A DNA stretch of 64,000 nucleotides from a virus: positions 8,362 through 72,361 of the IMG/VR virus record IMGVR_UViG_3300032093_011758, one strand, 5' to 3'. The notes beneath the pieces were generated by a model. It was not told the origin of the DNA. It saw nothing but the letters and a program-made list of their open reading frames with translations, and searched no databases. Both the position numbers and the translations under genes were made by a program. Positions 31,899 to 60,174 of the stretch are shown here, in pieces (the first letter of the stretch is position 1; every line of letters begins with the position of its first letter).

Positions 31899-32651
31899 TT
31901 AGTTTTTTAAAATGTTACTTAAAAGACCCACGTATAACTTTTTGTATTTTTTCATTGAATTTCTTATTTCTTTAGTGGTCAAATTTGTCATTTCTCTTAA
32001 GGAGAGTAAAACGATGTTTTTATTGAATTTGTTGTTATCTGTATTTGATATTAAACTTTCATAGTTATCAAAAATATCTAAAAGAGCAATTCCAAGTTTC
32101 TTTTCATTCTCGTTTAGTTGTTGCTTATTGATATAATTTTTCAAGTCTATTTTAAACTGAATGATTATATTTTCAGAACTGAAATCATTTTCTTCTATTG
32201 TATATGAATATTTAACGTTTTCTTCAATAGAGGATGAAATATCTTCATAAGATATTTTTCTATTCATTTCTTTTTGGTCTTTAATTATCTGACCCATCAG
32301 ATAATTTTTACAAATAGTACCGAAATAAGAATACGCCTTTTTTTCCTTTGATGGTTTGAATTTATCAATTTTCGTCATCAAGAAGGAATGAGTATCCGCA
32401 TGAATTTCTTCAAAATTCATATCCTTTCTATACAACTTATACCTTCTAATAATTGAAGATATCATTTTGTCTAAGGGATCCCTTAAGTATTGATTATAAA
32501 TTTTGTTTCTACCTTCAAATGTTTCTTCTTGTAAAAACATTCTAACGGCCATTTCTTCTTTTACATCAAAATAATTCTCTTGTTTTGATCTTCTACCTCT
32601 TTTTTTTGTTTCATTACTTATAGAAATTCCGGTCAGTTCATAAGATTCCAT
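31899..32651 (-). CDS. phage late-transcription sigma factor (T4 gp55-like, sigma70 region 2)
   Basis: KIDKFKPSKEKKAYSYFGTICKNYL matches the gp55/sigma region-2 pattern (F.P.K...AF.YF..I); start at TAATG overlap 32651. Confidence 0.72.
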   Translation of the reverse strand: MESYELTGISISNETKKRGRRSKQENYFDVKEEMAVRMFLQEETFEGRNKIYNQYLRDPLDKMISSIIRRYKLYRKDMNFEEIHADTHSFLMTKIDKFKPSKEKKAYSYFGTICKNYLMGQIIKDQKEMNRKISYEDISSSIEENVKYSYTIEENDFSSENIIIQFKIDLKNYINKQQLNENEKKLGIALLDIFDNYESLISNTDNNKFNKNIVLLSLREMTNLTTKEIRNSMKKYKKLYVGLLSNILKN

Positions 32652-33454
32652 TAAAATTGAGGCGTAAATTTCAATTGTCTTTCGTCTTTGAAGAAATATT
32701 CTTTTTTCGCGGATTCTATCCAAAATTTAACTTCTTGTTCAGTCAAGATGTTATCACCATTCTTGTAGTTCCAAAAAATAGATCCTTCTCTGAGATTGAC
32801 GTGTTTATATCCCAATTTGGGGATGGTCATTATTTTGACAGAATTAAAAGTTAATCTTAATAAGAATTCATATACGAAGGTTAGTTTAAAATTTCCTTTG
32901 AAGCCTCCATATTCTTTGATGATATCTTTTTTGACTACCATACCCGCAGTTTGAAAGTTTTGAAAATTATGTAAAGTTTCATTTGTTAAAAAACCTACCT
33001 CTTGACTGAAATTAGATGCGAAAGTCGCTTCATTTGTAAATCCAGCAAACAAACCCTTTTCATCAACATCAATAACAATAGGTAAAAAAGCTTTTACATC
33101 TTTGTAAAGATCTATGTATTTTTTTACATTATCAAACCAAATACCGGAGTATTCATCATCAAATTCTAAAAATGAAACCCATTCTGAAGATGCGGATTCA
33201 ATTCCGGCATTCATTTGTTTTGCAAAATTTGGTTCATCAATCCATTTGACTTTTTTTACATTTAAACTACCGAAATCATAATTGTTCAATTTGGTTTCTA
33301 AAAGTTCTTCATCTGTATGAACTATAACAAGTTCATTTACAGAAACTTTTTGATTGATGATAGAATCAATTGCTTTTTTCAAATAGTCGTCAAAATCTCT
33401 AGCCGTGGCTGTCTTTATTGGTAAAATTATTGATACGTCAATTTTATTATCCAT
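32651..33454 (-). CDS. glycosyltransferase family 2 (GT-A)
   Basis: VSIILP, KAIDSI..Q, NAGI...SSEWVSFLEFDD. Confidence 0.85.
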   Translation of the reverse strand: MDNKIDVSIILPIKTATARDFDDYLKKAIDSIINQKVSVNELVIVHTDEELLETKLNNYDFGSLNVKKVKWIDEPNFAKQMNAGIESASSEWVSFLEFDDEYSGIWFDNVKKYIDLYKDVKAFLPIVIDVDEKGLFAGFTNEATFASNFSQEVGFLTNETLHNFQNFQTAGMVVKKDIIKEYGGFKGNFKLTFVYEFLLRLTFNSVKIMTIPKLGYKHVNLREGSIFWNYKNGDNILTEQEVKFWIESAKKEYFFKDERQLKFTPQF

Positions 33455-34508
33455 TTTCTTCAGTTTTTAATTTGTTTAATTGTTCTGTGAAAGATTTTTC
33501 TCTAATTTCTAAATATTCAGTAAATAATGTGACCACATTATTTTCAAAAGTTTCTTTATTTGGTAAAGAATCCACCGTTTTTTTCATACCTTCATAGAGA
33601 TCGGGACTTATGTTATCTTCCAACCAATTTTGTAAGAAATCGGCAACGAAATCAGGTAATTTATTGTCTTCAGTAATCCAAATACCATTCTCAGCGTTTA
33701 ACCAATGCGGATATAATGTAGGTACTTTTCCTATAACCGGTACTCCGCACTTCATTGATTCCAAAGGAAATGTACCAAAACCACTTGTTTCATCTATCCA
33801 AACACTTAAAAAACATTCTTTCAAGAAATTTGCAAAATCACTTTCACTCAAACCTCTCATATCTCTGAAGGTTACCCATCTATATTGTGGAAATTTAAGG
33901 TAAAAAGTTTTAATGAAATTAATCGTTTTTCTCGGATCTCTTGAATGTACCGCCACAAAAGGTTTGGGTGGATATTTGTTTGTTTCAAAGCTCTCCGAGA
34001 TCATAGGTGTCAAAACATCAATTGAAACATTCCTCATAACTGTTGAAATGTATTCTTTTTGAAATTCAGACGTTGTGATACATTTTAAGAATCCGTAATT
34101 AGCCCAACCATATCCAGGTTGAAGTGTCTCTAACATATGGTCGTATGCTTGACATAAAACAACTTTACCACAAGGTAAATCCTTAATTTGTTCCATTACA
34201 AAACCATAAATTTCAGGAATAATGATTAAATCTTCAGGTGATATTTCTAAATTTTGACCTTCAATTGATTTGTGAGGTAATTCCATATACTCTTCACCTA
34301 ACCATTCAGAAACACCCGTGTAATCAGGTTTTTCATGTAAGATTATTGGGTTAAACCCTGATTTTTTTAAGGCAAAACCTAACTGATAAATGTATCTAAC
34401 TCCGGCTTTAGGATTTCCTTTTGTATCCTGAACAAATAGATAAATTCTAGAACTTTTATTTTTTAGGTTTTCAATTGATTTTTCTAACTTTTCTACTTTT
34501 TGATCCAT
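33447..34508 (-). CDS. GT-B glycosyltransferase (GT4-like)
   Basis: D.IIIPEIY, C-terminal SGFGTFPLESMKCGVPVIG. Confidence 0.8.
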   Translation of the reverse strand: MDQKVEKLEKSIENLKNKSSRIYLFVQDTKGNPKAGVRYIYQLGFALKKSGFNPIILHEKPDYTGVSEWLGEEYMELPHKSIEGQNLEISPEDLIIIPEIYGFVMEQIKDLPCGKVVLCQAYDHMLETLQPGYGWANYGFLKCITTSEFQKEYISTVMRNVSIDVLTPMISESFETNKYPPKPFVAVHSRDPRKTINFIKTFYLKFPQYRWVTFRDMRGLSESDFANFLKECFLSVWIDETSGFGTFPLESMKCGVPVIGKVPTLYPHWLNAENGIWITEDNKLPDFVADFLQNWLEDNISPDLYEGMKKTVDSLPNKETFENNVVTLFTEYLEIREKSFTEQLNKLKTEENG

Positions 34509-34510
34509 GA

Positions 34511-34786
34511 TTAATATGATTTAATTATTCTTTTATTCAATAAGGTGTTAAATGCCAATCTAAATGGTATAGAAAGATGTTTTGAACTTTTTGAACCTAA
34601 TGACTCATCAATTTCTTCACCTCCGTCCATTAACACTTCTAGCATAAGTTTTATTGATTCATACCTAACAATATTGATGTGATGTTCTCCGGTTAAACCG
34701 CTGATTGGATTATCAATCATAACATACTTATCAATTTCATCAGTATCTATAAAGTAATGTTCATTCATTATTTCTAACATACTCAT
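34511..34786 (-). CDS. hypothetical protein
   Basis: 91-aa ORF in operon. Confidence 0.7.
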   Translation of the reverse strand: MSMLEIMNEHYFIDTDEIDKYVMIDNPISGLTGEHHINIVRYESIKLMLEVLMDGGEEIDESLGSKSSKHLSIPFRLAFNTLLNKRIIKSY

Positions 34787-35430
34787 AAATTTAAATTTTT
34801 GATTATAGATTTTAACTCCTTAATAGATGAAATTGTCAGATCATTCTTAATTTCTTTATTGTATGAAGTTTCAAATTTTATAATAATTTTATTTTTGGGG
34901 TAATTCAATAATAAGTCAGGATTAGCAGTAAGTAAAATGTCTAATTCATCCCACATAGATTTTTTAGTGGAATTACTAAAAAATTTTATTTTTTCTAATA
35001 AACATCCAAATTTTGAGAGAAAAAAAAGAGTTGCGGGTTTTGATTTACCTATTTCATCTGAAACAATTAGTAAGTCATGACTATCTCTAATGTCTAAATA
35101 AAACTCATTTAAATCGTTCATAGAAGACATTTCAGTAGATCCTGCATGACCAAATATTTGCATAGGAAAATCTCTATACATAAAATCGTATAGTTCTTCA
35201 TCTGATTGAAATGCAAAATGTTCTCTTAAATTCAATGAGGTGATTTCACTTAAGATCTCATATTTGAACGGTTTGAAGATTTCTAACTCCGTATTACCTG
35301 ATGAATCTAATTGATAAGTTTCAGTATCAGAATCATTTTGGCTTTCGTCTACTAAATGTTTCTGATATAATTGGGATATTTTTCCAACAGTGTCTCTTAA
35401 AACACCATTTATATCAATCGCTATTCTCAT
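34783..35430 (-). CDS. HAD-superfamily 5'(3')-nucleotidase-like protein
   Basis: N-terminal MRIAIDINGVLRD (HAD motif I variant). Confidence 0.65.
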   Translation of the reverse strand: MRIAIDINGVLRDTVGKISQLYQKHLVDESQNDSDTETYQLDSSGNTELEIFKPFKYEILSEITSLNLREHFAFQSDEELYDFMYRDFPMQIFGHAGSTEMSSMNDLNEFYLDIRDSHDLLIVSDEIGKSKPATLFFLSKFGCLLEKIKFFSNSTKKSMWDELDILLTANPDLLLNYPKNKIIIKFETSYNKEIKNDLTISSIKELKSIIKNLNL

Positions 35431-36169
35431 TATTTTCGTAATTTTTTAATAATTTGGATATCAAAGGATTTCTTACAACATCTTCATCTTTAAATTGAAA
35501 GATCCCGACATCATCAGTGTTTTTGTGTTTTCTTAAGGCGTCCCACAATCCTGTTTGAGTTTTGTTTTTGTGTCTATCAAACTGCTCCAAATCCCCTGAG
35601 ATAAAAAATTTAGAATTGAATCCGATCCTTGTCAATAGTAATTTCATTTGTCCGGGAGTTGCGTTTTGAGCTTCTTCAAAAATTAATATAGTATTATCTA
35701 TGTTCATTCCTCTCATGTAAGCTAATGCAAAAACCTCAATAACATCAATTTCTTTTAGTTTTTCGCGAGCCTCTTTACCTATAATTTTATTAAGAAGATA
35801 ATAAGAAGGGAAAATATACGGATCTAATTTTTCTTCCACATTTCCCGGTAGTGATCCTAATTTTTCTTCGGCTTCTACTGCGGGTCTTACAATTACTATT
35901 TTTTCGTAGGGTGTTGTTGGGTCTGATAAAAGATCAACAGCCGCTTTCATGGATATATAGCTTTTACCAACACCGGCAGGTCCTGAACAAATAGTGATTT
36001 GATTTTTAGTTAAAATATCATAGTATATTTTTTGACTCTCAGATAAAAATTTTTCCTTTGTCTTTTTTTTAATTATTTGAGTTATCTGTTCTTTTTTAGT
36101 TAATTTTGGTTTAAACTCAGTTTGAGTTTCTTCTTTTTTTACTGTTGTTCTTTTTTTTCTTTCTGTCAT
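35414..36169 (-). CDS. phoH: PhoH-family ATPase
   Basis: GPAGVGKS, RPAVEA.EKLG.LPG, AYMRG, EEAQN, GDLEQ.D, DVVRNPL. Confidence 0.95.
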   Translation of the reverse strand: MTERKKRTTVKKEETQTEFKPKLTKKEQITQIIKKKTKEKFLSESQKIYYDILTKNQITICSGPAGVGKSYISMKAAVDLLSDPTTPYEKIVIVRPAVEAEEKLGSLPGNVEEKLDPYIFPSYYLLNKIIGKEAREKLKEIDVIEVFALAYMRGMNIDNTILIFEEAQNATPGQMKLLLTRIGFNSKFFISGDLEQFDRHKNKTQTGLWDALRKHKNTDDVGIFQFKDEDVVRNPLISKLLKNYENNENSD

Positions 36170-36177: not shown

Positions 36178-36768
36178 TTATTTTTTTACTACAATTAGTA
36201 AATCATCATATCTCCTTTTTATATGTCTAAGATCAACTAATTCTATGCTTTTGTGTTCTATATTTTTAATACTTTCCATCAATATTTTAACATAATTACC
36301 ATCTTGAATATCTTCTATTATTAGAATTCCGTTTTCTTTGAGTAAAGGTAAATAATTTTGTAGTGTATATATTTGTGAATCTAAAGAATGTGGGCCGTCT
36401 TCTACAATTATATCAAACCCTTCAGGGTACGTATCAGATAAAAATTTAAGATTTTCGTCTTTGAAGGCATCTATTTCGTAAAACACATATCTTTCAGGAT
36501 TCATTGACGAAAATATATACTCATTTACTTGATTTTTAATATCAACTAAAACCAGTTGTGATTGGGGTAAATAATCATGCCACAGTAAGGATGACCCACC
36601 GTATTGTACCCCTATCTCAAGAATTGTTGTTTTTTTATTGAGATATGATTCAAAACTTTCGGCGTAAAAGTTATCGTAACTATGGTCTGAAGCTTTATCG
36701 GTACCACCTCTATGATTAAATCCGTTTATTTGATGTTTTTCTAAAATTTCTATAATTTTGTTAGTCAT
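36178..36768 (-). CDS. class I SAM methyltransferase (MycE-like sugar O-methyltransferase)
   Basis: TDK...HSY...Y, ILEIGVQYGGS..W..Y, FDIIVEDGPH, G.LIIEDI. Confidence 0.8.
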   Translation of the reverse strand: MTNKIIEILEKHQINGFNHRGGTDKASDHSYDNFYAESFESYLNKKTTILEIGVQYGGSSLLWHDYLPQSQLVLVDIKNQVNEYIFSSMNPERYVFYEIDAFKDENLKFLSDTYPEGFDIIVEDGPHSLDSQIYTLQNYLPLLKENGILIIEDIQDGNYVKILMESIKNIEHKSIELVDLRHIKRRYDDLLIVVKK

Positions 36769-37411
36769 ATTTTTTTAAAATTTTAATTCCTGTATAGTCA
36801 ATTTTTTCAATTTTATATTTGATTCCCGAAGATTCAAAATATTCATCTACGGCCTTTTTAGAACCCGCCCAATGTCCATAGTCATCTACAATTAAAATCC
36901 CACGATCAACTAATTTTGGGTATAGAACATCAAGTTCTTTTTTTGTTGATTTATACCAATCTGTGTCTAATCTTAAAATACATATATTTTCAGGAGTATT
37001 TGACAACTCATCTAAAGTTTCACAAACGTCTCCTACTACAAATTTTATGTTCTCTTTAGGAAACATAGAGGAAGATAAATTATTTTTTACTTCGCTTAAA
37101 GAAGAATAACAAAAAACTTGAGGTAAAATATCTGAAGCTTTACGGTTGTTTAAATCAATGTCAACTTCTTCGGGTTCAGTCATCCCTCTGAAAGTATCGT
37201 ACAACCAAACTTTTTTGTCAAAAATTTCGTGAAAATTAAGATATTCAATAATACCTAGTATATTACCTCCTTTCCAAACACCACATTCTACAATATCACC
37301 ACTTATTCTTTCTTTACGTATGTACTCTAAAGAATTATATAACTCAGATATTCTTTCAACAGATGTCATTGAGTAGGGACTGACAAGTTTTATGAATTTT
37401 TCAAGGTTCAT
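36761..37411 (-). CDS. TylF/MycF/NovP-family sugar O-methyltransferase
   Basis: GDIVECGVWKGG, LYDTF.GM, LRLDTDWY.ST, IVDDYG.W.G...AVDEY. Confidence 0.9.
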   Translation of the reverse strand: MNLEKFIKLVSPYSMTSVERISELYNSLEYIRKERISGDIVECGVWKGGNILGIIEYLNFHEIFDKKVWLYDTFRGMTEPEEVDIDLNNRKASDILPQVFCYSSLSEVKNNLSSSMFPKENIKFVVGDVCETLDELSNTPENICILRLDTDWYKSTKKELDVLYPKLVDRGILIVDDYGHWAGSKKAVDEYFESSGIKYKIEKIDYTGIKILKKYD

Positions 37412-37417
37412 ATTTTT

Positions 37418-37960
37418 TTACTTTTTTGTTAAACAGAATGATGGACAACCATCTTTTGTAAGATATTTCATTTCATAATTTTCTTGATTACAAAATTCAT
37501 CAATCGCTCTCACAACACCAGGAAACATAGCTTTAGAATAATCATGACCACAGATAAGTCCATCCTTTTTAATTTTTTTAAAAGAAATTATCAAATCTTT
37601 TTTCACCCCTTCGTAAGAATGATCACCATCAATGTAAATATAATCAAAATATTCATTAGGGAAAGTTTCAAGAATATCTTGACTATATCCTTTATGTAAA
37701 GTCACGACTTTATTGTCTGAATATGTTTTTTTTAAATTTTCATATTCAGATTCTAAGGAAGTCCAAACAATATTATTACCATCTTTATCCCCTGAACACA
37801 TTTGACCTTCAAAAATATCAATTAAATGTAATTCTTCCGGATCCATTTTTTGTAAAATCAACTTAGAAAAATCCCCTTTGAAAACGCCGATTTCACAAAA
37901 TTTTTTTTTCTTGTCAAGAATTTCAATTAATTCATCTCTTGAGTTTAAAATATTTATCAT
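37418..37960 (-). CDS. SAM methyltransferase (Methyltransf_24-like)
   Basis: EIGVFKG, FDYIYIDGDHSYEGV..D, GLICGHDY, GV..A.DEF. Confidence 0.88.
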   Translation of the reverse strand: MINILNSRDELIEILDKKKKFCEIGVFKGDFSKLILQKMDPEELHLIDIFEGQMCSGDKDGNNIVWTSLESEYENLKKTYSDNKVVTLHKGYSQDILETFPNEYFDYIYIDGDHSYEGVKKDLIISFKKIKKDGLICGHDYSKAMFPGVVRAIDEFCNQENYEMKYLTKDGCPSFCLTKK

Positions 37961-37965
37961 ATTAT

Positions 37966-38691
37966 TTAATTTTTATATTTAAATTCTTTCATTTTTGAAA
38001 ATTTATTGGAATAATTACCGGGACCGCCAGCAAAATGTAATGCCGACCCATTATACTCTTTAAGATTGTATCCATTGTGACTTACCATGTTTGATAAATC
38101 TGTTTTATATAAATTGTTTCTAAAAAGATAGACATTAAAAAATGGTTGCTCTAAACATATATTTACCAATTGTTTATTTTGCAATAAAAAAGTTTCAATC
38201 TTTTCAAGATGATTCACAAGTTTTGAGTTGAATCCAAAAATTCCGGCATTAATTCCTTTAATTTGTTTTTTTTCTATGATCAATTTTTCCTCAGTTGTTA
38301 ATATTTTTCCTCCCCACCATTCTTCAGACATTAATGAATTTTCATTACTTACATAAAAAAAATCTTCATTTATGTTATTAAAAATATTATCAGGTGAGGA
38401 TGTCCAAACTATATCCGCATCACAAAAAATTATTTTATCATAATCTTTTAAATTTGGGTATTTATAAATTTTTAATTTATTTGCACTAGATTCTAACAAA
38501 CCCGAAGTTTCAATAGTTAGAAATAAAGGTTTTTTTTCAAATTCTAAACTATTCAAAAGTAATTCTTGTAAATTGGTGATGAAAAGTACGTCACCATCAT
38601 ACTTTTGATAATACAAACTTTCTAAACATATTTTGAGAAGGTTTATGTATTCGGGATTATTACTAATAGTGAAATATATTAATTTTCTCAT
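37966..38691 (-). CDS. GT-A glycosyltransferase (GT8/GT34-like)
   Basis: KIIFCDADIV (DxD), GINAGIF, LEQP.FN, LHFAG. Confidence 0.75.
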   Translation of the reverse strand: MRKLIYFTISNNPEYINLLKICLESLYYQKYDGDVLFITNLQELLLNSLEFEKKPLFLTIETSGLLESSANKLKIYKYPNLKDYDKIIFCDADIVWTSSPDNIFNNINEDFFYVSNENSLMSEEWWGGKILTTEEKLIIEKKQIKGINAGIFGFNSKLVNHLEKIETFLLQNKQLVNICLEQPFFNVYLFRNNLYKTDLSNMVSHNGYNLKEYNGSALHFAGGPGNYSNKFSKMKEFKYKN

Positions 38692-39464: not shown

Positions 39465-39466
39465 AA

Positions 39467-51837: not shown

Positions 51838-51844
51838 ATAAATA
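51838..51844 (-). promoter_or_regulatory. TATTTAT putative late promoter
   Basis: Divergent partner of the motif at 51858. Confidence 0.6.
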
Positions 51845-51857
51845 CTGCGATACAAGG

Positions 51858-51864
51858 TATTTAT
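51858..51864 (+). promoter_or_regulatory. TATTTAT putative late promoter (fibre block)
   Basis: 9 nt before ATG 51874. Confidence 0.6.
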
Positions 51865-51873
51865 CTATGAATT

Positions 51874-54060
51874 ATGGCATATCAGAATATTAATCAATAT
51901 GTTTTTAAGAAATGGCGTATAATTGAAAGACCAATAATACAAGATTTCTCTCTTGCATCAGATGAAAAAGACTACAAAGAGGAGGTAATCTTCTCAAGAC
52001 AAATTATTGCCCATGATGATGGAAACAAATTACCAATAAGTTTTGATTTGGATGATTCCAATTCAAGTGAATTGTTTGTTCTAAATTACAAAAACTATAA
52101 CCCTTTCAATAATATTATATCTACTAATTTTTATAACCCTAAGAACGAAGATTTGACTTGTTTTAGTTCACAAACTTCTTGTGATATAGGTCTTACAGGT
52201 ATAGATAATGGGTTAGTATCTGAAATGACAGGACAAACAATAACATTTACAAAAGGTTTATTGCCTGATTCTGAAAAGTTTGACAGGTTATCATTTGATA
52301 GAAGATTAAAATTACATCAGGTTACTGGGTATACTTGGCAACCTAATTTGCAGTTTTCAGGGTTACCTGAGAATATGTTATTTGAAGTCGTATCAAAACA
52401 AAATAGTAAAGTTGGTGTGTATCACGAACTTTATGGTGGGTTTTATCAAGGATTTTATAAATTATTCGGATATGATTATGAAACATTTCCAAGTAGGGTA
52501 AACAAAGGGTGGTCAGTTGAGATGTTGATCAAACCAAGAATTGTGGATGAATTTGTTCCAAATCCTGATGAAACATCATTAAATGAAGTTTATCCAAATA
52601 ACAAAAATATTTTCTTTTATTTGGGAACTAGATCGGAGAATAAATTTTATCACCACGCTGATGGATCACCAAGTTCTTTGTCAGAATATAGTAGAGTTAC
52701 TTCAAGTCTGACATCTTTAGAAACTTGTGCTTGTTGTAACCCTGAAAATACAAACTCAAGATGCATATATGTTTATCCCCCAAGATCTATAAATAACGAA
52801 CACGATCCTCATAATAACTATGGATGTAATGTGTGTGGGGCGAGTTATGAATTCATGAAACCAACTTGTGAGTGTAATTGTGATCCGATACCCACATGTG
52901 GATGGGAGTGTAAACAACATGGTTGTGTAACAAAATATACAACAACCACAACAACTCAAAAATCTGATTGTGGAACACCTTGTGAAACATGTCAAAGCTG
53001 TGAATCGGTATCTTATGGTTCGGTTGAAAACACTTGTGAAACAGATCCATTGTATGATGGAATGTCAAATGCAATATCTTTCAAATTATGTGGAGACCCC
53101 AAAAATCCTGGTATCGGAGTTAGAATACTTCGTTTTACCGGGGGATGTGAAGTTTCCGGATCATGTCCCACAGGTGCAACATACACGACGGGATATACTG
53201 TAGATGACTACTGCACGACTAAAAAGATTTATGACTATTGTATCGCAGAAGGAAACCCTGAGTTCTTGGAACAGGAACATTGGATCCAAGTAAACTTTGT
53301 TTGGGAAAGATATTCCAACTTAGAAGATTGTGATTTGGTAAATAAAGGGGGATTAGGATTAATTACTGAAATTGAATATTTGGATTCATTAGCAAATAAT
53401 TCGGTGTCTCTTATAAAACCACCTGTAACTCAAGGGTGTAGTTCGGCGGATGAAATAGAACTTGTGAATCTTAATCAAAATTGGTTAGATGAGAAGAAAT
53501 ATAGAATGGGTAGATTAAAAATTTATGTTAATGGTAGAGTGTTTGAAGTATTAGAAAATATAGAAGAAATAATCCCAAGAGCCCTTAATACTGATAAAGA
53601 AAAACAAGTTGGGGTTCCGTTTAATATTTCTTGGGGTGGAGGAACTCAAGGATTACATAACCATTTAACGTTCACAGGAATACCCGAATCAACATCAGGT
53701 TTGATCTATCAACAAGATCCGGAATTATTTCCAACAAACATTTTGAGTGGAACTACCTTCTCTGAACTTAAAACAAACATACTTTTAGAACAAAACTTTG
53801 GTGGAACATTTGAAGGAGGAATTTCTCAATTCAGAATGTACACCCAACCTTTGAGTGCTGATGAGGTAAAACACAACTTTTTATTATTAAAAAATAAATT
53901 TGACTTGTTCGACTATGATTGTCCGAATTGTTGTTTGGGTGATGATTTTGAATTTACACTACCAACACCAATTACTACGACAACCACTACTTACGTACCA
54001 ATTACAACCACAACGACATTCATTCCTGTAACAACTACAACAACTTATTTTGGTGGATGA
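51874..54060 (+). CDS. LamG/concanavalin-like beta-sandwich virion protein with Cys-rich insertion and Thr-rich tail
   Basis: [10 protein letters not shown]...W.QV.FVW...LKIYVNG...ISWGGG...[13 protein letters not shown]...EV..NF; about 29 Cys. Confidence 0.6.
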
Positions 54061-54061: not shown

Positions 54062-55738
54062 ATGAATAATTTGATAACGATACAAAGTAAAATATATAGT
54101 GGAAAAACTCTCAATATTGTTTTTATCCCGGATAATCAACACATTAAAATTGATTTGGGTAATCACGTTATTCCTTATAATTTTAATTCTGCATTGTTGT
54201 CACCCCCTCGTGAAGTTTATGGTCAATATATCATAAATTCTTTGAGTGGAGATTGTTTATTTAATTTATTTGTTGTAAGACCAACACCTACTAACACACC
54301 ATCACCAACTAAAACACCTACAAATACTCAAACACCTTCCGTTACATCAACTAATACTTTAACACCGACTCCAACTCCAACGAATACAGAATGCTTCTTC
54401 CCGACATATACTCCAACTAGTACACCTACATCGACAAACACACCAACACCGACTAATACACCTACAAATACGGAGTGTTTCTTCCCAACATTACCTAATG
54501 TCACACCTACTAACACACCAAGTAATTCATCAACACCTTCTAATACACCAACTAACACAGGCACACCAACTCAAACTTCTACACCCACAATTACCCCAAC
54601 TCCAACAAATTTACCGATACAAACTCCGACTGTTACTCCAACCAACACACAAACTCCAACTAATACAGAAACATCTACTAATACCCCAACTCCTACAAAT
54701 ACACAAACACCAACTAATACAAATACTCAAACACCCACAACAACCAATACACAAACACCAACAAACACAGAAACACCTACACAAACTTCAACCCCAACTA
54801 ATACACAAACACCAACAAACACAGAAACCCCTACCAATACTCCGACTCCTTCAGTTACAATAGGATTAACCCCAACTGCAACAGAAACTCCCACCCCTAC
54901 AAATACACAAACACCAACTAATACAGAAACTCCCACCCCTACAAATACAAGCACTCAAACTCCAACTAACACAGAAACTTCAACCCCAACGAATACACCA
55001 ACTCAAACTCAAACACAAACTCCGACTAACACTCCAACTCCAACTAACACAGAAACCTCAACACCTACCAATACTCCAACTAACACAGAAACACCAACTC
55101 AAACTCCAACACAAACAACTCCATTGAGTTGTGACTTTACATACACGTTGATTGAAAATTGTGACGCCGAATATCAATTTTTAGGCGTCCCTCCGAGTTT
55201 ATTTGTTTGGGAATATTTGAATCCCGGAGATTACATAGACGGATCATTACAAACAAATAGAGGAACATCATCTGTTAAAATGACAACTTCAGGTGGTAGT
55301 TTGGTTCCTGATTGTGTCACGAGCGGAATAACATTTGCCGGTTTAGGAACTGAAGTTCCACAATTTCAAAACTACTTGGTTTGTGGAATACCAAACACTT
55401 TAACCACGGATGCTTATAGGGTTATATCACCAATAGAGATGACATTCACATTCACACCCGCAGTCACAAATCCATTACTCGCTTTTTGGTCTTTGGGTCA
55501 ATCGGGAATATGTCAAACTTTTAGTGCCGACACTAACTTCCAAAACTTCCCGTATTGTTATAATACAGCCGAGCAACCATTAACACTCAATTTGGTTAAT
55601 AGAACTATAACCGCATGTGAAGGATTTGGTGTAATTGAGTTCCAAGGAACATTCAGTCAAATTAAATTATCTGTATTGTCAACAGAATGTAGAACTAATT
55701 TCTTGTGGGCAAACATAATATGGGGATTTGAGGAATAA
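54062..55738 (+). CDS. mucin-like Thr/Pro-rich virion fibre/decoration protein
   Basis: Small N-domain, ~280-aa TPT(N/E/Q) stalk, C-terminal beta domain; no signal peptide. Confidence 0.7.
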
Positions 55739-55771: not shown

Positions 55772-57076
55772 ATGATAATAGGGGTTTACATATCAAGTTC
55801 TAACTACAACGGACAAACTGCGTTCGTAACCTTTTCTCCAACTACAGGTGGAACTATAACCATAGGTAATAAGTTAATACCCTTTAATTATTATGACAAC
55901 TATCCCTACGGAACTTATAATTTATATTTTTCTTCCATAAACCAAACTTGTATCGTTGAGGTTATTCAACCGACACCGACACCAACACCAACCAATACCG
56001 TAACCCCTACTGAAAGTCCATTAATAACTGAAACCGCAACTCCAACCCCAACTGCAACACCTCCAATTATAACTTGTGAAGAACTTCTTGTTTCAGAAAA
56101 TAACCTTTATATAATGACTGAAGGTAGTGATATCATTTCTTTACAACAAGACCTATGTCCTAGCTCAACGCCAACAAACACCCCAACTGAAACTCCAACC
56201 CCAACTAACACTCCTACAAATACAGAAACACCAACCAATACTCCAAGTGAAACCCCTACCGAGACACCAACCCCAACTAATACCGAAACTCCAACTGAAA
56301 CCCCGACGCCTACCAATACCGAAACTCCAACTGAAACCCCAACCGAGACACCAACCCCAACTAATACCGAAACTCCAACTGAAACTCCAACACCGACTAA
56401 TACAGAGACACCAACTGAAACCCCTGTTGCAAGTCAAACAAACACACCAACAAATACTGAAACCCCGACTGAAACTCCAACAGAGACACCAACTCCGACT
56501 AACACCCCAACTGTAACTTCAACTCCGATTTGTGATCAATTATTAACGAATGAAAATGATGACAATATACTATATGAAAATGGTGATTTCTTATCATTAG
56601 AACAGGACTTCTGCCCGAGTCAAACCCCTACTAATACACCAACAAACACACCAACTCCAACTAATACCCCTACTGAAACAGAAACAAGCACACCTACACC
56701 TACTGAAACAGAAACAAGCACACCTACACCTACTGAAACAGAAACAAGCACACCTACACCTACTGAAACACCAACTCAAACTCCAAGTGAAACACCTACC
56801 GAAACTCCAACCCCAACTAACACAGAGACACCAACTGAAACTCCGACCCCAACTAACACAGAGACACCAACTGAAACTCCAACTAACACTCCAACTCCAA
56901 CCCAAACAGAATCTAATTTACCATTAGAGACACCAACACCAACCGCAACAAGTTCTGAAACACCTACTGAAACACCAACACCAACTCCAACTCCAACTGA
57001 CGCGAATGAAAATATGACAGCCGAAAATGGAGATACAATAACCGCTCAAAATGACGATCCAATTATTTTTGATTAA
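55772..57076 (+). CDS. mucin-like Thr/Pro-rich protein with three xxEN-type short repeats
   Basis: N-domain paralogous to ORF 54062; TPTET stalks; LLVSENNLYI, LLTNENDDNI, MTAENGDTI motifs. Confidence 0.7.
   Translation: MIIGVYISSSNYNGQTAFVTFSPTTGGTITIGNKLIPFNYYDNYPYGTYNLYFSSINQTCIVEVIQPTPTPTPTNTVTPTESPLITETATPTPTATPPIITCEELLVSENNLYIMTEGSDIISLQQDLCPSSTPTNTPTETPTPTNTPTNTETPTNTPSETPTETPTPTNTETPTETPTPTNTETPTETPTETPTPTNTETPTETPTPTNTETPTETPVASQTNTPTNTETPTETPTETPTPTNTPTVTSTPICDQLLTNENDDNILYENGDFLSLEQDFCPSQTPTNTPTNTPTPTNTPTETETSTPTPTETETSTPTPTETETSTPTPTETPTQTPSETPTETPTPTNTETPTETPTPTNTETPTETPTNTPTPTQTESNLPLETPTPTATSSETPTETPTPTPTPTDANENMTAENGDTITAQNDDPIIFD
56669..56770 (+). repeat. perfect 30-bp tandem repeat (3.4 copies) encoding PTETETSTPT
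   Basis: CCTACTGAAACAGAAACAAGCACACCTACA. Confidence 0.9.
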
Positions 57077-57121: not shown

Positions 57122-57748
57122 ATGGCAAACGTAAAAATATCTCAACTACCTACTTACACAGGTAATACACAAAACACTTGGATGGTAATAAACGATTCAG
57201 GTGAAACCACGAGTTATAAAGTTCAAAAACAATATTTCTTTGCGGCCGCAGGATTTTCTTGGGTAGACACCGGATCGGGAAGTAACTACCCTGCGAGTGA
57301 TAGATATGGTAATCTAACAAACGCTTCAGATAACTATATGCCTTTTAATACGACAATTTTTAACAATAATACAGATGTATTTGAATTAGTTAATTCAGGA
57401 TCTGTATCTGGAACTTTAGGTGATACGGGAGCTAGGGTTTATATTAAAGTTCCTGGAATATATCAAATATCTTGTCAAGTGCATTTGTTTGACCTTTTCG
57501 GTAATATTGATGTTTTAGTCAAATTATCATCATCATCAACCTCGGCAGGAACAATGTCTTTGGTTACTTTACTTCACGATTATAAGTCAGTTGAAACATC
57601 TGCAGATCAATTAATGAATGGAACACTTTTGATAAATGTAACCGATCCTACTTATTATGGACTTGCGGTAACTCCAAGTGCAAATACTCCATTCCCTTCG
57701 GCAACCAATTCAACCCCAACAAGGTGGTTCTTCCAAAAAATATCTTAA
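57122..57748 (+). CDS. fibre tip-like protein (MANVKISQLP N-terminus; C1q/BclA-CTD-like C-domain)
   Basis: MPFNT...N...F...VYIKVPGIYQISCQV resembles TNF/C1q-like trimeric tip domains. Confidence 0.55.
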   Translation: MANVKISQLPTYTGNTQNTWMVINDSGETTSYKVQKQYFFAAAGFSWVDTGSGSNYPASDRYGNLTNASDNYMPFNTTIFNNNTDVFELVNSGSVSGTLGDTGARVYIKVPGIYQISCQVHLFDLFGNIDVLVKLSSSSTSAGTMSLVTLLHDYKSVETSADQLMNGTLLINVTDPTYYGLAVTPSANTPFPSATNSTPTRWFFQKIS

Positions 57749-57818: not shown

Positions 57819-57829
57819 TATTTATTTAT
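57819..57829 (+). promoter_or_regulatory. overlapping tandem TATTTAT putative late promoter
   Basis: TATTTATTTAT, 11 nt before the in-frame ATC at 57841. Confidence 0.55.
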
Positions 57830-57840
57830 AAAAATAAGTT

Positions 57841-60174
57841 ATCTCCGCCTTTTTACAAATATCAAGCATAGTTGGAACCCCCCCATTTCAGGTTTACGTT
57901 TGTGATGTCACTGGTTCATATTGTGAATTAGTTGATACAATTACGGGGTCCGTTCCTCCATCGGTTTTGATTCAATTACCGAGCTTCTTTGACCTTGCTC
58001 CCGCAGTATTGGTAAAAATAGTCGATGCAAATAACTGTGAAAATTATGAGATAAGACCTTGTCAAACAACTCAAACCCCAACTCCCACCCCTACGGTTAC
58101 ACCAACTAACACTCAAACACCGACAAAAACTCCTACTCAAACACCAACAGTTACGCCAACAAACACTCAAACTCAAACGCCAACTAACACTGAAACCTCA
58201 ACTAACACACCAACACAAACAAATACTTCCACCCAAACACCTACAAGTACTGAAACACCTACTAATACACCAACACAAACAAATACTTCCACCGAAACAC
58301 CTACAAGTACTGAAACACCTACTAACACACCAACTAGCACTACAACTCCAACAAGTACGGAAACACCAACACCAACTAATACTGAAACTTCAACTGAAAC
58401 ACCTACCGAAACTCCAACCCCAACTAACACAGAGACACCTACACCTACAAACACGGAAACAACAACACCAACGAATACGGAGACACCTTCAAACACCCCA
58501 ACTCAAACACCAACCTCAACACCTCCTCCGGCAATATGCTTTACAATATCTGATGAGTTCTCAAGTTGGTCTTGCACAATTTCACCATCCGGATATCATA
58601 ATACAAAAGTTTACTACGCGGTATATGGATCTGATTGCACAACTGTCATAGGTTATGTCTATTGGTCTATAACTAACGATAGATGGGAAACTTCTAATGT
58701 CTTGGATGGAACGGTATATGGATACTTGGATAATGCGGGTGATGATTATCCAATTAATGGTCAATTCTTCTTCTGGGTTCCTGTGAGTGGTGATTATGAA
58801 ATAAATGCATCTATTGAAGGAATTTGTCCTACACAAACTCCAACACCAACAAATACGACAACTAATACTTCAACACCAACAAATACGGCAACTAACACTC
58901 CAAGTAGTGTAACTCCAACACCGACACCTACAAATACTCAAACACCAACTGAAACTCCAACTCTAAATACCTGTCTGATCCAATCATGTTGTGAACCAAC
59001 AGACCTCAGAACGGCATATGTTAGTATCCCTGACGCAATTGTTGGTAGAACCGGTCTATTGGGCGGATTCTGTTTCCAAATCCTTCAAGTTGGTATTTCA
59101 GGAACTCCGAGCAATATTATGACACAATTCTATGATAATTGTTTAGATTGTGAAACCGTTAATCCTTGCCCAACTCCAACACCAACAAGAACTCCGACTA
59201 GAACACCAAGTCAGACACCAACTCAAGCAACACCAACTCCAACATCAAGTAATACTCCAACTTTAGCGACACCTACACCAACACCTTCACATACTCCAAC
59301 AAATCAAACACCAACCGTCACACCAACAAATAGTCCATCCTATTTGAATTGCGTTGCCGAATATTGTTGTGATGTTACAGATCAGGAAATCTTGAAGGTA
59401 AGAAGTGATCTTGCAATTATTGGAAATACAGTTGTATTCAATAACAAATGTTATAGAATTATTCAAAACAATCTTGTTATTGCGTTTGATATTATAAATT
59501 CCGCTTATAGTAGTTGCGCAACATGTTTAGTTGATTACGGATGTCCTACTTCAACTCCAACTCCAACTAACACAAGAACACCATCAAATACTCCTTCCAA
59601 TACACCAAGTGGTGTGACTCCGACTCCAACTCCAACTAACACACCAAGTAGTGTAACACCAACTCCAACACCAACAAACACCGCAAGTAATACACAAACA
59701 CCATCCAATACCGCAACGAACACACAAACTCCATCAAATACTCCGACAAATACTCAAACACCAACTAACACAAGAACAAATACCCCAACACCTTCCAATA
59801 CTCCATCTAATACTGCAACTCCGACAGAGACACCAACTAATACTCCAACCAACACACAAACACCAACTAATACTCCAACCAACACACAAACACCATCTAA
59901 CACTCCTACTAATACCCAAACCTCAAGCGAAACTCCAACAAATACACCAACTAATACTGAAACTCCAACCAATACTCCTACTAACACAACCACATCTACC
60001 GAAACTCCGACTTCTACTCAAACTCCAACAGAAACACCAACTAACACTCCAACCAACACAGAAACTCCGACTCAAACTCCAACACCTACACCAACAACAT
60101 TAGAGGAAGGTTTTTTACAACAGGAAAATCTATTCTATATCCTCCAAGAGGACCAGAATAATATCATAATATAA
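57841..60174 (+). CDS. mucin-like Thr/Pro-rich multi-domain protein with Cys-rich modules (probable start at non-canonical ATC 57841)
   Basis: Frame is open from 57838 ([22 protein letters not shown]...); several TP stalks; two CC...C...CxxC...C modules; C-terminal [15 protein letters not shown]. Confidence 0.7.
58201..58320 (+). repeat. 60-bp near-perfect tandem duplication in TP stalk
   Basis: 58201-58260 versus 58261-58320 differ at 2 positions. Confidence 0.85.
59831..59895 (+). repeat. 30-bp tandem repeat (2.2 copies) in TP stalk
   Basis: CACCAACTAATACTCCAACCAACACACAAA x2. Confidence 0.85.

What the first reader, a model, noticed from the sequence alone, without database searches (positions are those of the whole stretch)
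32651..60174. Candidate phage-encoded virion glycocalyx: glycan-building cluster plus mucin-like Thr/Pro fibre proteins
Seen: about 10 glycosyltransferase-like genes of diverse folds (GT2, GT-B, GT8-like, GT47-like, GT31/Fringe-like), four SAM methyltransferases and an SDR-like gene at 32651-47889. Three late-promoter-associated genes (54062, 55772, 57841) encode hundreds of residues of T/P-rich stalks and have no signal peptide. Known: PTS-rich domains are the classic O-glycan acceptors, and GT31 includes the mucin core-1 galactosyltransferase and Fringe. Bacteroidota host O-glycosylation is periplasmic, so it could not reach cytoplasmically assembled virion proteins. Inference: the phage builds its own methylated O-glycans on extended mucin-like virion stalks, analogous to chlorovirus/mimivirus glycosylation but at mucin scale on a tailed phage.
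Basis: partly seen in the sequence, partly recalled or inferred. Interest (0 to 1): 0.85.

Follow-up and report, generated by a model that had tools for sequence, protein, structure and literature searches.

The report
Phage sugar island and Thr-Pro stalks
A large T4-like phage, probably of Bacteroidota, carries a strain-variable set of sugar-building enzymes close to fibre-like proteins with very long threonine-proline stalks; these could form a sugar coat on the virus particle, but the link is unproven and each feature also occurs without the other.

Summary
Both halves of the observation are real. 32651-47889 (minus strand) holds seven genes with glycosyltransferase (GT) signal, four methyltransferases (three solid), and one epimerase/dehydratase-like gene. 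PhoH, dUTPase and an exonuclease lie among them. Three plus-strand genes carry 296, 324 and 494 residues of T/P-rich tract.

New here:
- The sugar genes are four lineage-conserved soluble GTs around a hypervariable island (36178-43963). That island is replaced by a different sugar cassette in 4 of 4 fetched relatives.
- The TP tracts are stalks between small conserved N-terminal beta-sandwich domains and variable distal domains. All 120 of 120 listed homologues of one such domain have this layout.
- TP tracts also sit in the tail sheath of relatives.

For virion glycosylation: no membrane or lipid-carrier components, one conserved GT related to the Agt family (cytoplasmic glycoprotein elongation), virus-only GT families, and no hydroxymethylase/TET route for DNA sugars.

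Against a necessary link: a complete 30-kb phage has TP stalks and no GT. Flavobacterium phage immuto and a phi92-like coliphage have GT clusters and no TP tracts. No initiating protein GT was recognised.

Verdict: plausible, untested. My odds are about 0.35 for virion-protein glycosylation.

The parts
32651..33454 (-). Conserved GT2-family glycosyltransferase (GT2_a)
   Evidence: PF00535 at 29.2 bits, above cut-off. Orthologues in 4 of 4 relatives at E 1e-102 to 1e-110. No hydrophobic segment.
33447..34508 (-). Conserved GT-B glycosyltransferase (GT-B_a), distant relative of the Agt/AmGGT family
   Evidence: PF00534 at 22.8 bits, below cut-off. A profile of 5 orthologues hits PDB 8xsg at E 3.4e-13, with the next hit at 0.012. 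Orthologues in 4 of 4 relatives. No match in the phage record collection.
34511..36169 (-). Conserved non-sugar genes inside the block: two unknowns (91 and 215 aa) and PhoH
   Evidence: PhoH E 2.7e-61. All three are present in 4 of 4 relatives.
36178..43963 (-). Hypervariable sugar island of 12 genes. It holds three Methyltransf_24-type methyltransferases (36178, 37418, 39467; the last is weak), a TylF O-methyltransferase (36761), a GT8-like gene (37966), an RXYLT1_C-like gene (38688), an epimerase/dehydratase-like SDR (40057), a Fringe-like GT (41872), and four unknowns (40853, 41222, 42558, 43301).
   Evidence: Pfam and Atlas. Eleven of the 12 genes have no syntenic counterpart in any of the 4 relatives. 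The methyltransferase 36178 has only a weak, non-syntenic match in G003 (E 4e-12). The gene at 43301 has an orthologue in G004. Each relative carries a different sugar cassette of 2.7-10.4 kb at the same site.
43960..45384 (-). Conserved GT2-like glycosyltransferase (Glyco_tranf_2_5) with an extra C-terminal domain
   Evidence: PF13712 E 4.5e-25. Orthologues in 4 of 4 relatives, there fused to a second GT2-like half. In G003 the C-terminal domain is a separate ORF.
45397..46669 (-). dUTPase and 3'-5' exonuclease, interspersed nucleotide-metabolism genes
   Evidence: Pfam. Conserved in 4 of 4 relatives.
46675..47889 (-). Conserved GT-B glycosyltransferase (GT-B_b) of a virus-only family
   Evidence: PHROG 7162 at 8.7e-46. 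Atlas clusters are 96-100% viral. Orthologues in 4 of 4 relatives at E 1e-186 to 1e-201. Homologues at 26% identity in phi92-like coliphages.
51826..51873 (.). Divergent late-type promoter region (a TATTTAT motif in each direction)
51874..54060 (+). Conserved Cys-rich structural protein (728 aa) with a T-rich C-terminus. Its homologues in three of the four relatives carry TP tracts.
   Evidence: Orthologues in 4 of 4 relatives at E 1e-197 to 1e-285. TP tracts of 20-72 aa lie inside the homologues in G002, G003 and G004; the G001 homologue was not flagged. No Pfam or PHROG family.
54062..55738 (+). TP1: N-terminal domain A (about 70 aa beta sandwich), a 296-aa TP stalk, and a 198-aa C-terminal domain
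   Evidence: The C-terminal domain has no relative in viral contigs.
55772..57076 (+). TP2: N-terminal domain A, then three TP tracts (324 aa in all) separated by short acidic motifs
   Evidence: Late motif upstream.
57122..57748 (+). 208-aa fibre-like protein. Its N-terminus resembles that of 60199 (by eye).
   Evidence: sequence inspection only. Late motif upstream. No family match.
57838..60174 (+). TP3: N-terminal domain B, four TP tracts (494 aa in all), and three small Cys-containing domains
   Evidence: Domain B is shared with G002_226680 and G004_75615.
60199..63513 (+). 1104-aa fibre-like protein with a DUF5122 beta-propeller
   Evidence: PF17164 E 6.4e-64. The same module carries a TP tract in the GT-less phage G018.
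20253..21488 (+). Sugar C-methyltransferase-like gene in a second variable spot just after the capsid gene
   Evidence: PF08484 E 2.8e-30. Absent from 4 of 4 relatives.

Best explanation
The region combines two real and separable systems.

**(1) A soluble glycan-assembly pathway.** It is expressed without the late-type promoter motif. Four GTs are conserved across the lineage (32651, 33447, 43960, 46675). They bracket a strain-specific cassette (36178-43963) that in this phage supplies extra GTs, an NDP-sugar epimerase/dehydratase-like enzyme and sugar O-methyltransferases.

**(2) Late virion proteins built as domain - stalk - head.** A small Ig-like beta-sandwich N-terminal domain is followed by a long (T-P-T-x)n stalk and then variable distal domains.

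**Most likely mechanism (inferred, not shown).** The conserved GTs start and extend a core glycan on the phage's own structural proteins in the cytoplasm. The cassette then diversifies the outer sugars by methylation and by deoxy or amino sugars. The Thr-rich stalks are the most probable acceptors. The result would be a strain-variable sugar coat on fibres or decoration proteins.

**Shown here.** Gene content, conservation pattern, solubility of the enzymes, stalk architecture and late-type promoters.

**Inferred.** The acceptor, the existence of any glycan on virions, and the order of GT action. The stalks themselves work as length-conserved spacers and evidently do not need phage GTs in every phage.
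For: - **All soluble.** None of the 21 genes 32651-47889 has a hydrophobic 19-mer, apart from a marginal internal one in the exonuclease. No Wzx/Wzy/ligase-like or polyprenyl-phosphate transferase-like protein appears here or in the islands of 4 relatives.
- **Link to cytoplasmic protein glycosylation.** The only solved relative of GT-B_a is AmGGT of the Agt family (profile E 3.4e-13). The characterised member ApAgt elongates glucose on peptides glycosylated by NGT, and NGT and Agt share an operon (PMC12159676, abstract and sections 4 and 9). That this glycosylation takes place in the cytoplasm is recalled, not read in those sections.
- **Virus-specific family.** GT-B_b belongs to virus-only clusters and is shared with coliphages of an unrelated host. 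That argues for a phage-borne or universal acceptor rather than a host-specific surface glycan.
- **Core plus variable layout.** 4 GTs are conserved in 4 of 4 relatives, while 11 of the 12 island genes have no syntenic counterpart in any relative and different sugar genes sit at the same site. These include RmlD-like, UDP-GlcNAc 2-epimerase, DegT, hexapeptide acetyltransferase, WbqC and PIG-L genes.
- **Candidate acceptors are universal in the lineage.** TP tracts are present in 5 of 5 genomes or fragments. They include the tail sheath in G002 (1107 aa) and its sheath-like homologue in G003 (1119 aa). All 120 of 120 listed homologues of domain A have a TP tract starting at residue 50-100.
- **Conserved synteny.** The order GT-B_b ... 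51874 homologue ... domain-A gene holds in 22 of 57 loci.
- **GTs in other TP-rich records.** 3 of the 10 further TP-rich records tested have GT2 or GT1 hits: G010, G012 and G013 (94%, 55% and 22% complete).
- **DNA route unsupported.** The only thymidylate-synthase-family gene in the complete relative G002 passes the ThyA equivalog cut-off. There is no C5-methylase in the window's contig. G002's C5-methylases lie more than 160 kb from the GT block and have no dioxygenase beside them. phi92-like phages that carry GT-B_b homologues are reported as exceptionally sensitive to restriction (PMC8594841, passages).
- **Precedent.** Phage-encoded virion glycosylation is reported for mycobacteriophages. 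I saw that paper only as a citation in PMC12619734 and PMC13313380.
Against: - **No direct evidence of any glycan on any protein.**
- **TP stalks without GTs.** G018 is a complete 30,055-bp phage with terminal repeats. It has six TP-tract ORFs (25-256 residues) and a DUF5122 fibre, but no GT family among 27 ORFs at E<=0.01. Long TP stalks therefore work without phage GTs.
- **GT clusters without TP stalks.** Flavobacterium phage immuto has 5-6 annotated GTs plus aminotransferases, an epimerase and a methyltransferase, with 0 TP-tract residues. The phi92-like phage PaulScherrer has GT-B_b homologues in a 4-GT block and 0 matches to a TPTPTPT pattern, against 7, 26 and 51 in the positive controls.
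- **No quantitative co-variation.** The relative with the largest island (G001, 10.4 kb) has the least TP (232 residues). The one with the smallest island (G003, 2.7 kb) has 628.
- **No recognised initiating protein GT.** GT41 is absent from 5 of 5 records, 3 of them at least 94% complete. The Agt alignment does not reach the residues that set acceptor type.
- **Genomic setting.** The GT genes sit among nucleotide-metabolism genes and lack the late motif.
- **Unknown base rate.** I did not measure how often large aquatic phages carry GT genes, so co-presence within one lineage may be simple inheritance.
Confidence: 0.35

Rival explanations
1. The sugar genes remodel a host glycoconjugate during infection, such as a lipid-linked O-glycan precursor, LPS or capsule of the Bacteroidota host. 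They would act on the cytoplasmic face and use the host's own priming, flipping and ligation steps. The benefit would be blocking superinfection or stopping progeny from sticking to debris. The TP tracts would be bare spacers.
For: - Comparable clusters in T4-like cyanophages are read this way. S-SCSM2R has 13 GTs (PMC12801897, passages).
- Most GTs that build O-units are themselves soluble, so the absence of membrane proteins does not exclude this (established knowledge, recalled).
- Relatives encode T9SS-sorted surface proteins, which shows that the lineage manipulates the host surface.
- Hypervariable sugar cassettes resemble host O-antigen or capsule loci in content.
- TP stalks occur without GTs, and GT clusters occur without TP stalks.
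Against: - No priming transferase, flippase, polymerase or ligase is present in the window or in 4 relatives.
- GT-B_b is a virus-only family shared with coliphages whose hosts have unrelated envelopes.
- Building a complex, methylated glycan de novo needs host export machinery that accepts a foreign structure.
Confidence: 0.25
2. The glycans are put on virion proteins, but not on the TP tracts. Acceptors could be the capsid, sheath or fibre globular domains, as in mycobacteriophages where the C-termini of capsid and tail-tube subunits are modified. The TP tracts would be unmodified linkers.
For: - The same evidence for a soluble, phage-directed pathway as in the best explanation.
- The decoupling of TP tracts and GTs in G018, immuto and the phi92-like phage fits an acceptor other than TP.
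- The mycobacteriophage precedent was seen as a citation only.
Against: No candidate acceptor motif was identified. Thr-rich extended tracts are chemically the most accessible hydroxyl-rich surface in these virions.
Confidence: 0.1
3. The GTs hypermodify phage DNA with sugars on hydroxymethylated pyrimidines to escape restriction. The variable cassette would reflect an arms race with host nucleases.
For: - The GT genes are interleaved with dUTPase, exonuclease and PhoH, and a DNA methylase follows.
- In phi92-like phages the homologous GT block lies beside primase/helicase and DNA polymerase.
- Thousands of phage gene clusters put mono- to trisaccharides on 5hmC (bioRxiv 10.1101/2023.12.21.572611, abstract).
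Against: - No C5-methylase is found in the window's contig, and no Tet/JBP match in 5 records. The control genomes were silent for Tet/JBP, so that negative is weak.
- The thymidylate-synthase-family gene of the complete relative scores as a true ThyA.
- G002's C5-methylases are tandem, far from the GT block, and have no dioxygenase next to them.
- phi92-like phages with the homologous GTs are exceptionally sensitive to restriction.
- Seven or more GTs, an NDP-sugar-modifying enzyme and three or four sugar O-methyltransferases exceed anything in that abstract.
Confidence: 0.08

Closest known systems
Virion glycosylation in mycobacteriophages (Freeman et al. 2023, Cell Host Microbe). The paper is not held here. 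I saw it only as a citation in PMC12619734 and PMC13313380; the details are recalled.
   Same: A tailed phage encodes its own GTs, often with a methyltransferase. These would act in the cytoplasm on structural proteins.
   Different: There, a few GTs modify short C-terminal tails of capsid and tail-tube subunits. Here there are 7 or more GTs, a strain-variable cassette, and candidate acceptors hundreds of residues long. Homology to those GTs was not tested, and modification here is unproven.
Autonomous glycosylation machinery of chloroviruses and Megavirinae (review PMC9614988, seen in a search listing only; details recalled)
   Same: Virus-encoded soluble GTs, sugar-nucleotide enzymes and methyltransferases. 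Gene clusters differ between clades. The products coat capsid or fibrils.
   Different: Those are eukaryotic giant viruses with different acceptors (capsid N-glycans, fibril proteins). No sequence relationship was tested.
NGT-Agt cytoplasmic protein glycosylation of Actinobacillus (PMC12159676, abstract and sections 4 and 9 read)
   Same: GT-B_a is a detectable relative of the Agt/AmGGT family (E 3.4e-13). Members of that family elongate a sugar already attached to a peptide.
   Different: No NGT (GT41) partner is present. The alignment covers only residues 96-329 of AmGGT and misses the acceptor-defining residues. AmGGT itself uses free oligosaccharides.
MT-5mYOX-GT DNA sugar hypermodification clusters (Pyle et al., bioRxiv 10.1101/2023.12.21.572611, abstract read)
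   Same: Phage GTs related to LPS and teichoic-acid enzymes, diverse glycans, and metagenomic abundance.
   Different: The defining neighbours, a C5-methylase and a 5-methylpyrimidine dioxygenase, are not next to these GTs.
'Moraphages', freshwater jumbo phages with predicted Flavobacteriia hosts (PMC12619734, abstract passages and section 12 read)
   Same: The core set matches: PhoH, dUTPase, a ClpA-like ATPase, T4-like portal, capsid and prohead protease. Four core orthogroups are putative GTs of unstated function, and there are unexplored variable islands.
   Different: Membership could not be tested by sequence. The orthogroup tables are in data files I could not see. That paper does not describe the sugar island, its fixed site, or the TP-stalk proteins.
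Pro-Thr linkers of bacterial glycoside hydrolases and mucin PTS domains (recalled)
   Same: Extended low-complexity T/P tracts join globular modules. In several systems they are O-glycosylated.
   Different: Those proteins are secreted and are glycosylated outside the cytoplasm. Here the proteins have no signal peptide and assemble in the cytoplasm.

Membership tests
Phage virion glycosylation (mycobacteriophage type) | Phage-encoded glycosyltransferase(s), often with a methyltransferase | tested here: met
   7 genes with GT signal and 3-4 methyltransferases
Phage virion glycosylation (mycobacteriophage type) | Glycans covalently attached to virion structural proteins | not testable with these tools
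   Needs purified virions and mass spectrometry
Phage virion glycosylation (mycobacteriophage type) | Sequence relationship to the mycobacteriophage GTs | not tested
   The paper is not held and I searched with no reference sequences
Giant-virus autonomous glycosylation | Soluble virus-encoded GTs plus sugar-nucleotide modifying enzymes and methyltransferases, with clade-variable clusters | tested here: met
Giant-virus autonomous glycosylation | Glycan on capsid or fibrils | not testable with these tools
MT-5mYOX-GT DNA hypermodification cluster | C5-cytosine methyltransferase in the cluster | tested here: not met
   PF00145 is absent from the window's contig. In G002 the copies lie at 24-27 kb and 271 kb, and the GT block lies at 190-204 kb
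MT-5mYOX-GT DNA hypermodification cluster | 5-methylpyrimidine dioxygenase (TET/JBP-like) | tested here: inconclusive
   PF12851 found in 0 of 5 records, but no control genome rang. No dioxygenase-like ORF was noticed beside G002's methylases, by eye
T-even type hydroxymethyl-base glucosylation | dCMP/dUMP hydroxymethylase (diverged thymidylate-synthase homologue) | tested here: not met
   The only PF00303 gene in the complete relative G002 passes the ThyA equivalog cut-off (268.8 bits against 108.35). None in the window's contig, which is only 24% complete
Seroconversion / lipid-linked glycan pathways (Gtr, Wzx/Wzy) | Membrane components: flippase, polymerase, bactoprenol-linked GT, priming transferase | tested here: not met
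   No multi-span hydrophobic protein in the block or in the islands of 4 relatives
Mucin-type O-glycosylation | Long PTS-type acceptor domains | tested here: met
   296, 324 and 494 residues of T/P tract
Mucin-type O-glycosylation | GT31/Fringe-like extending enzyme | tested here: met
   PF02434 at 31.7 bits, cut-off 21
Mucin-type O-glycosylation | Initiating polypeptide GT acting on Thr, and a secretory-pathway location | tested here: not met
   No initiating family was recognised in Pfam or NCBIfam scans, and no signal peptides were found
NGT-Agt cytoplasmic protein glycosylation | Agt-like elongating GT-B enzyme | tested here: met
   Profile E 3.4e-13 to 8xsg. The relationship is distant and the coverage partial
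NGT-Agt cytoplasmic protein glycosylation | GT41 N-glycosyltransferase partner | tested here: not met
   PF13844 in 0 of 5 records; the control rang in 2 genomes
Moraphage lineage | Core gene set: PhoH, dUTPase, ClpA-like ATPase, T4-like portal/capsid/protease, four GT orthogroups | tested here: met
   Searches compared with Table 2 and the text of PMC12619734
Moraphage lineage | Sequence-level placement within the published clade | not testable with these tools
   The published genomes and orthogroup tables were not available to me

The most novel reading that the evidence does not exclude
A widespread lineage of large Bacteroidota phages, and perhaps other aquatic phages, dresses its fibres and decoration proteins in a strain-variable, methylated O-glycan coat. 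The coat would be built entirely in the cytoplasm by phage enzymes on Thr-Pro stalks hundreds of residues long. That would be a mucin-like glycocalyx on a tailed phage. A swappable sugar cassette would diversify the coat in the way O-antigen loci diversify bacterial surfaces.
Probability: 0.28. Interest if true: 0.85.

Novelty: new variant of a known kind. Interest (0 to 1): 0.55.

Why it matters
**If the link is real.** This would be the first case of dense, mucin-style O-glycosylation on a tailed phage, made by a fully cytoplasmic pathway. It would extend virion glycosylation from a few actinobacteriophages to abundant freshwater phages. It would also give a concrete function to the four 'core glycosyltransferases' and the unexplored variable islands noted for the moraphage group. 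A swappable sugar cassette on the virion would be a new axis of phage diversity. It could affect adsorption, particle stickiness, protease resistance and recognition by hosts or grazers.

**Even if the link fails.** Two descriptive results stand.
- A fixed-site hypervariable sugar island is bracketed by four conserved soluble GTs.
- A very large family of phage proteins is built as beta-sandwich N-terminal domain, Thr-Pro stalk and variable head. There are 265 clusters, and stalks in other lineages reach about 800 residues. I found no description of this in three literature searches.

**Testability.** The question can be tested with a handful of recombinant proteins.

Tried and rejected
- **Close DNA relatives.** None found in the phage record collection (megablast). 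tblastn with the 521-aa protein at 16764 also found none.
- **C-terminal domain of TP1.** No relative in viral contigs.
- **N-terminal domain A as a single-sequence query.** It found only its own cluster. An alignment query then reached 265 clusters.
- **The search for related loci with that alignment.** The call failed because no stretch was conserved enough. I used one consensus-like member instead.
- **AlphaFold model of GT-B_b from 5 orthologues.** Too poor to search with (mean pLDDT 59.9), so no fold search was run on it.
- **Model of N-terminal domain A.** Good (pLDDT 86.6), but it gave no PDB match at E<=0.001. The best hits were generic Ig/FN3 domains at E 0.18 or weaker. In the viral library the best hits were uncharacterised phage proteins (E 0.04-0.09). 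The fold says 'small beta sandwich' and nothing about where it attaches.
- **Sequence searches of GT-B_b against solved structures.** Nothing as a single sequence, and only one chance-level match (E 0.52) as a profile.
- **GT2_a.** Its best NCBIfam row is the SunS peptide S-glycosyltransferase, but at 23.6 bits against a cut-off of 350. I give it no weight.
- **Head fibres.** I considered that the stalks might be the head fibres reported for a jumbo Tenacibaculum phage (recalled). The search gave only reviews, and I did not follow it.
- **Not run.** A complex prediction of GT with stalk was not attempted, because enzyme-substrate pairs are a poor use of that test. Sequencing-run and read-mapping tools were not used, because they cannot show glycosylation.
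- **Unavailable.** The Freeman 2023 paper is not held.

Full report
**What the window is.** The window is bases 8362-72361 of a single 72,361-bp viral contig estimated at 24% complete. It encodes a T4-type large terminase, portal, prohead protease and Gp23-like capsid protein. G+C is about 0.25-0.40. No near-identical record exists in the phage collection. The nearest cultured capsid proteins are from Microcystis phage Mel-JY01 (43%) and Flavobacterium phage immuto (42%). In IMG/VR the capsid has at least 597 relatives, and the best 80 are 75-84% identical. I fetched four of their contigs whole: G001 (229 kb), G002 (296 kb, rated 100% complete), G003 (106 kb) and G004 (99 kb). A relative encodes a subtilase with SprB repeats and a T9SS C-terminal sorting domain, which points to a Bacteroidota host. 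Gene content matches the 'moraphages' described in 2025: PhoH, dUTPase, a ClpA/B-like ATPase, T4-like structural genes and four core GT orthogroups of unknown role (PMC12619734, passages and section 12). I could not test that membership by sequence.

- Seven genes in 32651-47889 show GT signal. Three pass Pfam cut-offs, two are confirmed by other means, and two are weak.
- Three methyltransferases are solid and one is weak, including a TylF-type sugar O-methyltransferase.
- The 'SDR-like' gene has no Pfam hit but groups with NDP-sugar epimerase/dehydratases in the Atlas.
- PhoH, dUTPase and an exonuclease are interleaved with the sugar genes.
- The three T/P-rich genes carry 296, 324 and 494 tract residues. 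The tracts are degenerate hexapeptide-like repeats around T-P-T-N-T-(E/Q).
- A TATTTAT motif lies 10-22 nt upstream of most plus-strand structural genes, including 55772, 57122, 57841 and 60199. It is not upstream of 54062, which overlaps the end of 51874. None of the 21 genes 32651-47889 has it. The enzymes and the stalk proteins therefore appear to be in different expression classes.

**Anatomy of the sugar block.** A phmmer comparison with the four relatives splits the block.
- Conserved in 4 of 4 relatives: GT2_a, GT-B_a, two unknowns, PhoH, the Glyco_tranf_2_5 gene, dUTPase, the exonuclease and GT-B_b.
- Between PhoH and the Glyco_tranf_2_5 gene (36178-43963), 11 of the 12 genes have no syntenic counterpart in any relative. 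The methyltransferase 36178 has only a weak, non-syntenic match in G003. The gene at 43301 is shared with G004.
- Each relative has a different sugar cassette at that site, 2.7 to 10.4 kb long. G001 has RmlD-like reductase and UDP-GlcNAc 2-epimerase genes. G002 has DegT-type aminotransferase and hexapeptide acetyltransferase genes. G004 has WbqC-like and PIG-L deacetylase genes. These sit among further ORFs that look like GTs and methyltransferases by eye.
- This is a fixed-site hypervariable sugar island bracketed by four conserved GTs.
- No protein of the block has a membrane-spanning hydrophobic segment, here or in the relatives' equivalents. There is no flippase, polymerase, ligase or priming transferase.

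**Anatomy of the stalk proteins.**
- TP1 and TP2 share an N-terminal domain of about 65 aa (domain A). TP3 has a different one (domain B). Both recur in relatives, always followed directly by a TP tract and then by variable domains.
- A profile of domain A finds 265 protein clusters. All 120 of 120 listed have a TP tract beginning at residue 50-100. The median is 95 tract residues and the maximum 443.
- Domain A models confidently as a six-strand beta sandwich (pLDDT 86.6). It has no significant structural match.
- In relatives, TP tracts also lie inside the tail sheath (confirmed by Pfam for G002), in the 51874 homologues of G002, G003 and G004, and in a gene next to the portal in G003.
- The shared core is TPT. 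The variable position differs between genomes.
- A near-identical variant of TP1 (P0003) is 100% identical in domain A and 97.4% in the C-terminal domain. It is only 80.6% identical in the stalk, with 22 gap columns, yet total length is 558 against 560 residues. The stalk evolves fast but keeps its length, as a spacer would.
- Stalks of this size are not unique. Other viral contigs carry tracts of 711, 812 and 840 residues.

**Does the sugar system act on the stalks? Evidence for.**
- The pathway is entirely soluble.
- The only solved relative of GT-B_a is AmGGT of the Agt family (E 3.4e-13; next hit 0.012). The characterised member elongates glucose on peptides glycosylated by the partner enzyme NGT (PMC12159676).
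- GT-B_b is a virus-only family shared with phi92-like coliphages. A host-specific acceptor is therefore unlikely.
- The conserved-core plus variable-cassette design parallels giant-virus glycan clusters (recalled).
- Both features are present in 5 of 5 lineage genomes. They are syntenic in 22 of 57 loci retrieved with a domain-A protein.
- Of 10 other TP-rich records tested, 3 have GT2 or GT1 hits: G010, G012 and G013, rated 94%, 55% and 22% complete. Of the seven without a hit, six are fragments rated 12-36% complete, and the seventh is the complete phage G018.

**Evidence against.**
- G018 is a complete 30,055-bp phage with terminal repeats. It has six TP-tract ORFs and a DUF5122 fibre like the window's, but no GT family among 27 ORFs.
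- Flavobacterium phage immuto has an 11-kb sugar cluster and no TP tract.
- The phi92-like phage PaulScherrer has GT-B_b homologues in a four-GT block beside replication genes and no TP pattern.
- TP amount does not follow island size.
- No GT41 or other recognised initiating protein GT was found.
- The Agt alignment stops short of the acceptor-defining residues.
- I did not measure the base rate of GT genes in comparable phages.

**The rivals.**
- *DNA sugar hypermodification* is a well-documented use of phage GTs (abstract of 10.1101/2023.12.21.572611) and fits the nucleotide-metabolism neighbours. But the window's contig has no C5-methylase. No Tet/JBP match appears in five records, though the control was silent. 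The complete relative's thymidylate-synthase gene scores as a true ThyA. Its C5-methylases are tandem, distant, and have no dioxygenase beside them. The coliphages carrying the homologous GTs are reported as exceptionally sensitive to restriction 'despite a putative dTDP glycosylation machinery' (PMC8594841, passages).
- *Remodelling of a host glycoconjugate* cannot be excluded, because host machinery could supply the membrane steps. This is the usual reading of similar cyanophage clusters (PMC12801897, passages).
- *Other virion acceptors.* Glycosylation of virion proteins other than the stalks also remains open.

**Verdict.** The sequence features are confirmed and sharpened. The mechanism is plausible, specific and testable, but circumstantial. 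I put virion-protein glycosylation with the stalks as main acceptor at about 0.35, host glycoconjugates at 0.25, other virion acceptors at 0.10 and DNA at 0.08. The rest is unassigned.

Three literature searches for Thr/Pro-rich or glycosylated phage fibres and two for phage virion glycosylation found no description of this architecture or of the fixed-site sugar island. Supplementary files, including the moraphage orthogroup tables, were not available and could bear on the lineage assignment.

Noticed in passing
window 25024-25473 (+): The phage encodes an FKBP-type peptidyl-prolyl isomerase (PF00254, E 1.1e-24). The match spans 135 residues against a 94-position model, so there is an inserted segment. 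It is also present in the complete relative G002 but not in the three other contigs. A prolyl isomerase is notable in a phage whose late proteins are up to 17% proline.
   Followed up: partly
window 20253-23558: There is a second variable spot directly after the capsid gene. Here it holds a sugar C-methyltransferase-like gene (PF08484, E 2.8e-30) and three unknowns, none of which has a syntenic counterpart in the 4 relatives (one has a weak non-syntenic match in G002). In G001 and G002 the same spot holds ORFs that look like signal-peptide-bearing T9SS cargo (confirmed by Pfam for one G001 subtilase). In G002 and G004 it holds large repeated ORFs.
   Followed up: partly
L181+L182 (G018, whole 30,055-bp record): This is a complete small phage with terminal repeats. 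It has six ORFs with TP tracts (25-256 residues), one of them a DUF5122 beta-propeller protein. No glycosyltransferase was found among its 27 ORFs.
   Followed up: yes
L151 8513-11191; L175 3619-9384; L180 8912-12517: Other viral contigs encode proteins with 711, 840 and 812 residues of T/P tract. One is an 893-aa protein that is 80% tract. Mucin-scale Thr-Pro stalks seem common in environmental phages.
   Followed up: partly
window 57838-57967: The third stalk gene has no ATG/GTG/TTG at the position where its homologues start. The frame is open from 57838, the late motif lies just upstream, and the first codon after it is ATC at 57841. Either an unusual start codon is used or there is a sequence error.
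   Followed up: partly
window 56070-56160, 56540-56620, 57015-57076, 60110-60174: Short acidic motifs of the form L-x-x-E-N-x-x-x-[IL]-x-x-E recur between and after the TP tracts of TP2 and at the C-terminus of TP3. Examples are 'ENNLYIMTEGSDIISLQQD' and '[18 protein letters not shown]'. Similar motifs flank TP tracts in G002 and G003.
   Followed up: no
window, upstream of most plus-strand structural genes: A conserved TATTTAT(A) motif lies 10-22 nt before start codons. It differs from the T4 late promoter TATAAATA read on the same strand. It also forms a divergent pair at 51826-51873.
   Followed up: partly
window 18356-20161 (+): The capsid protein is 601 aa. It aligns to other Gp23-like proteins in two pieces covering only 53-59% of its length, so it carries a large lineage-specific insertion or extension.
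   Followed up: no
window 72-2093 (-): A ClpB/ClpA-like double AAA+ chaperone is encoded by the phage. It is conserved in 3 of 4 relatives.
   Followed up: no
G002 24348-26943 (L082): There are three tandem C5-cytosine DNA methyltransferase genes with near-identical N-termini. A fourth lies at 271 kb.
   Followed up: partly
G002 162864-165965 (L089): The portal ORF of this relative is about 1030 aa, against 610 aa here. It may contain an intein or an inserted domain.
   Followed up: no
G000:C1:5089-5814 (outside the window, upstream): A 241-aa protein carries a Ser/Thr/Asn-rich tract of about 45 residues. This is a different low-complexity type from the TP stalks.
   Followed up: no
L119 5623-8799 (Escherichia phage PaulScherrer): phi92-like coliphages carry a block of four GT genes beside primase/helicase and DNA polymerase, including two homologues of GT-B_b. 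Their target is unknown, and these phages are reported as sensitive to restriction.
   Followed up: partly
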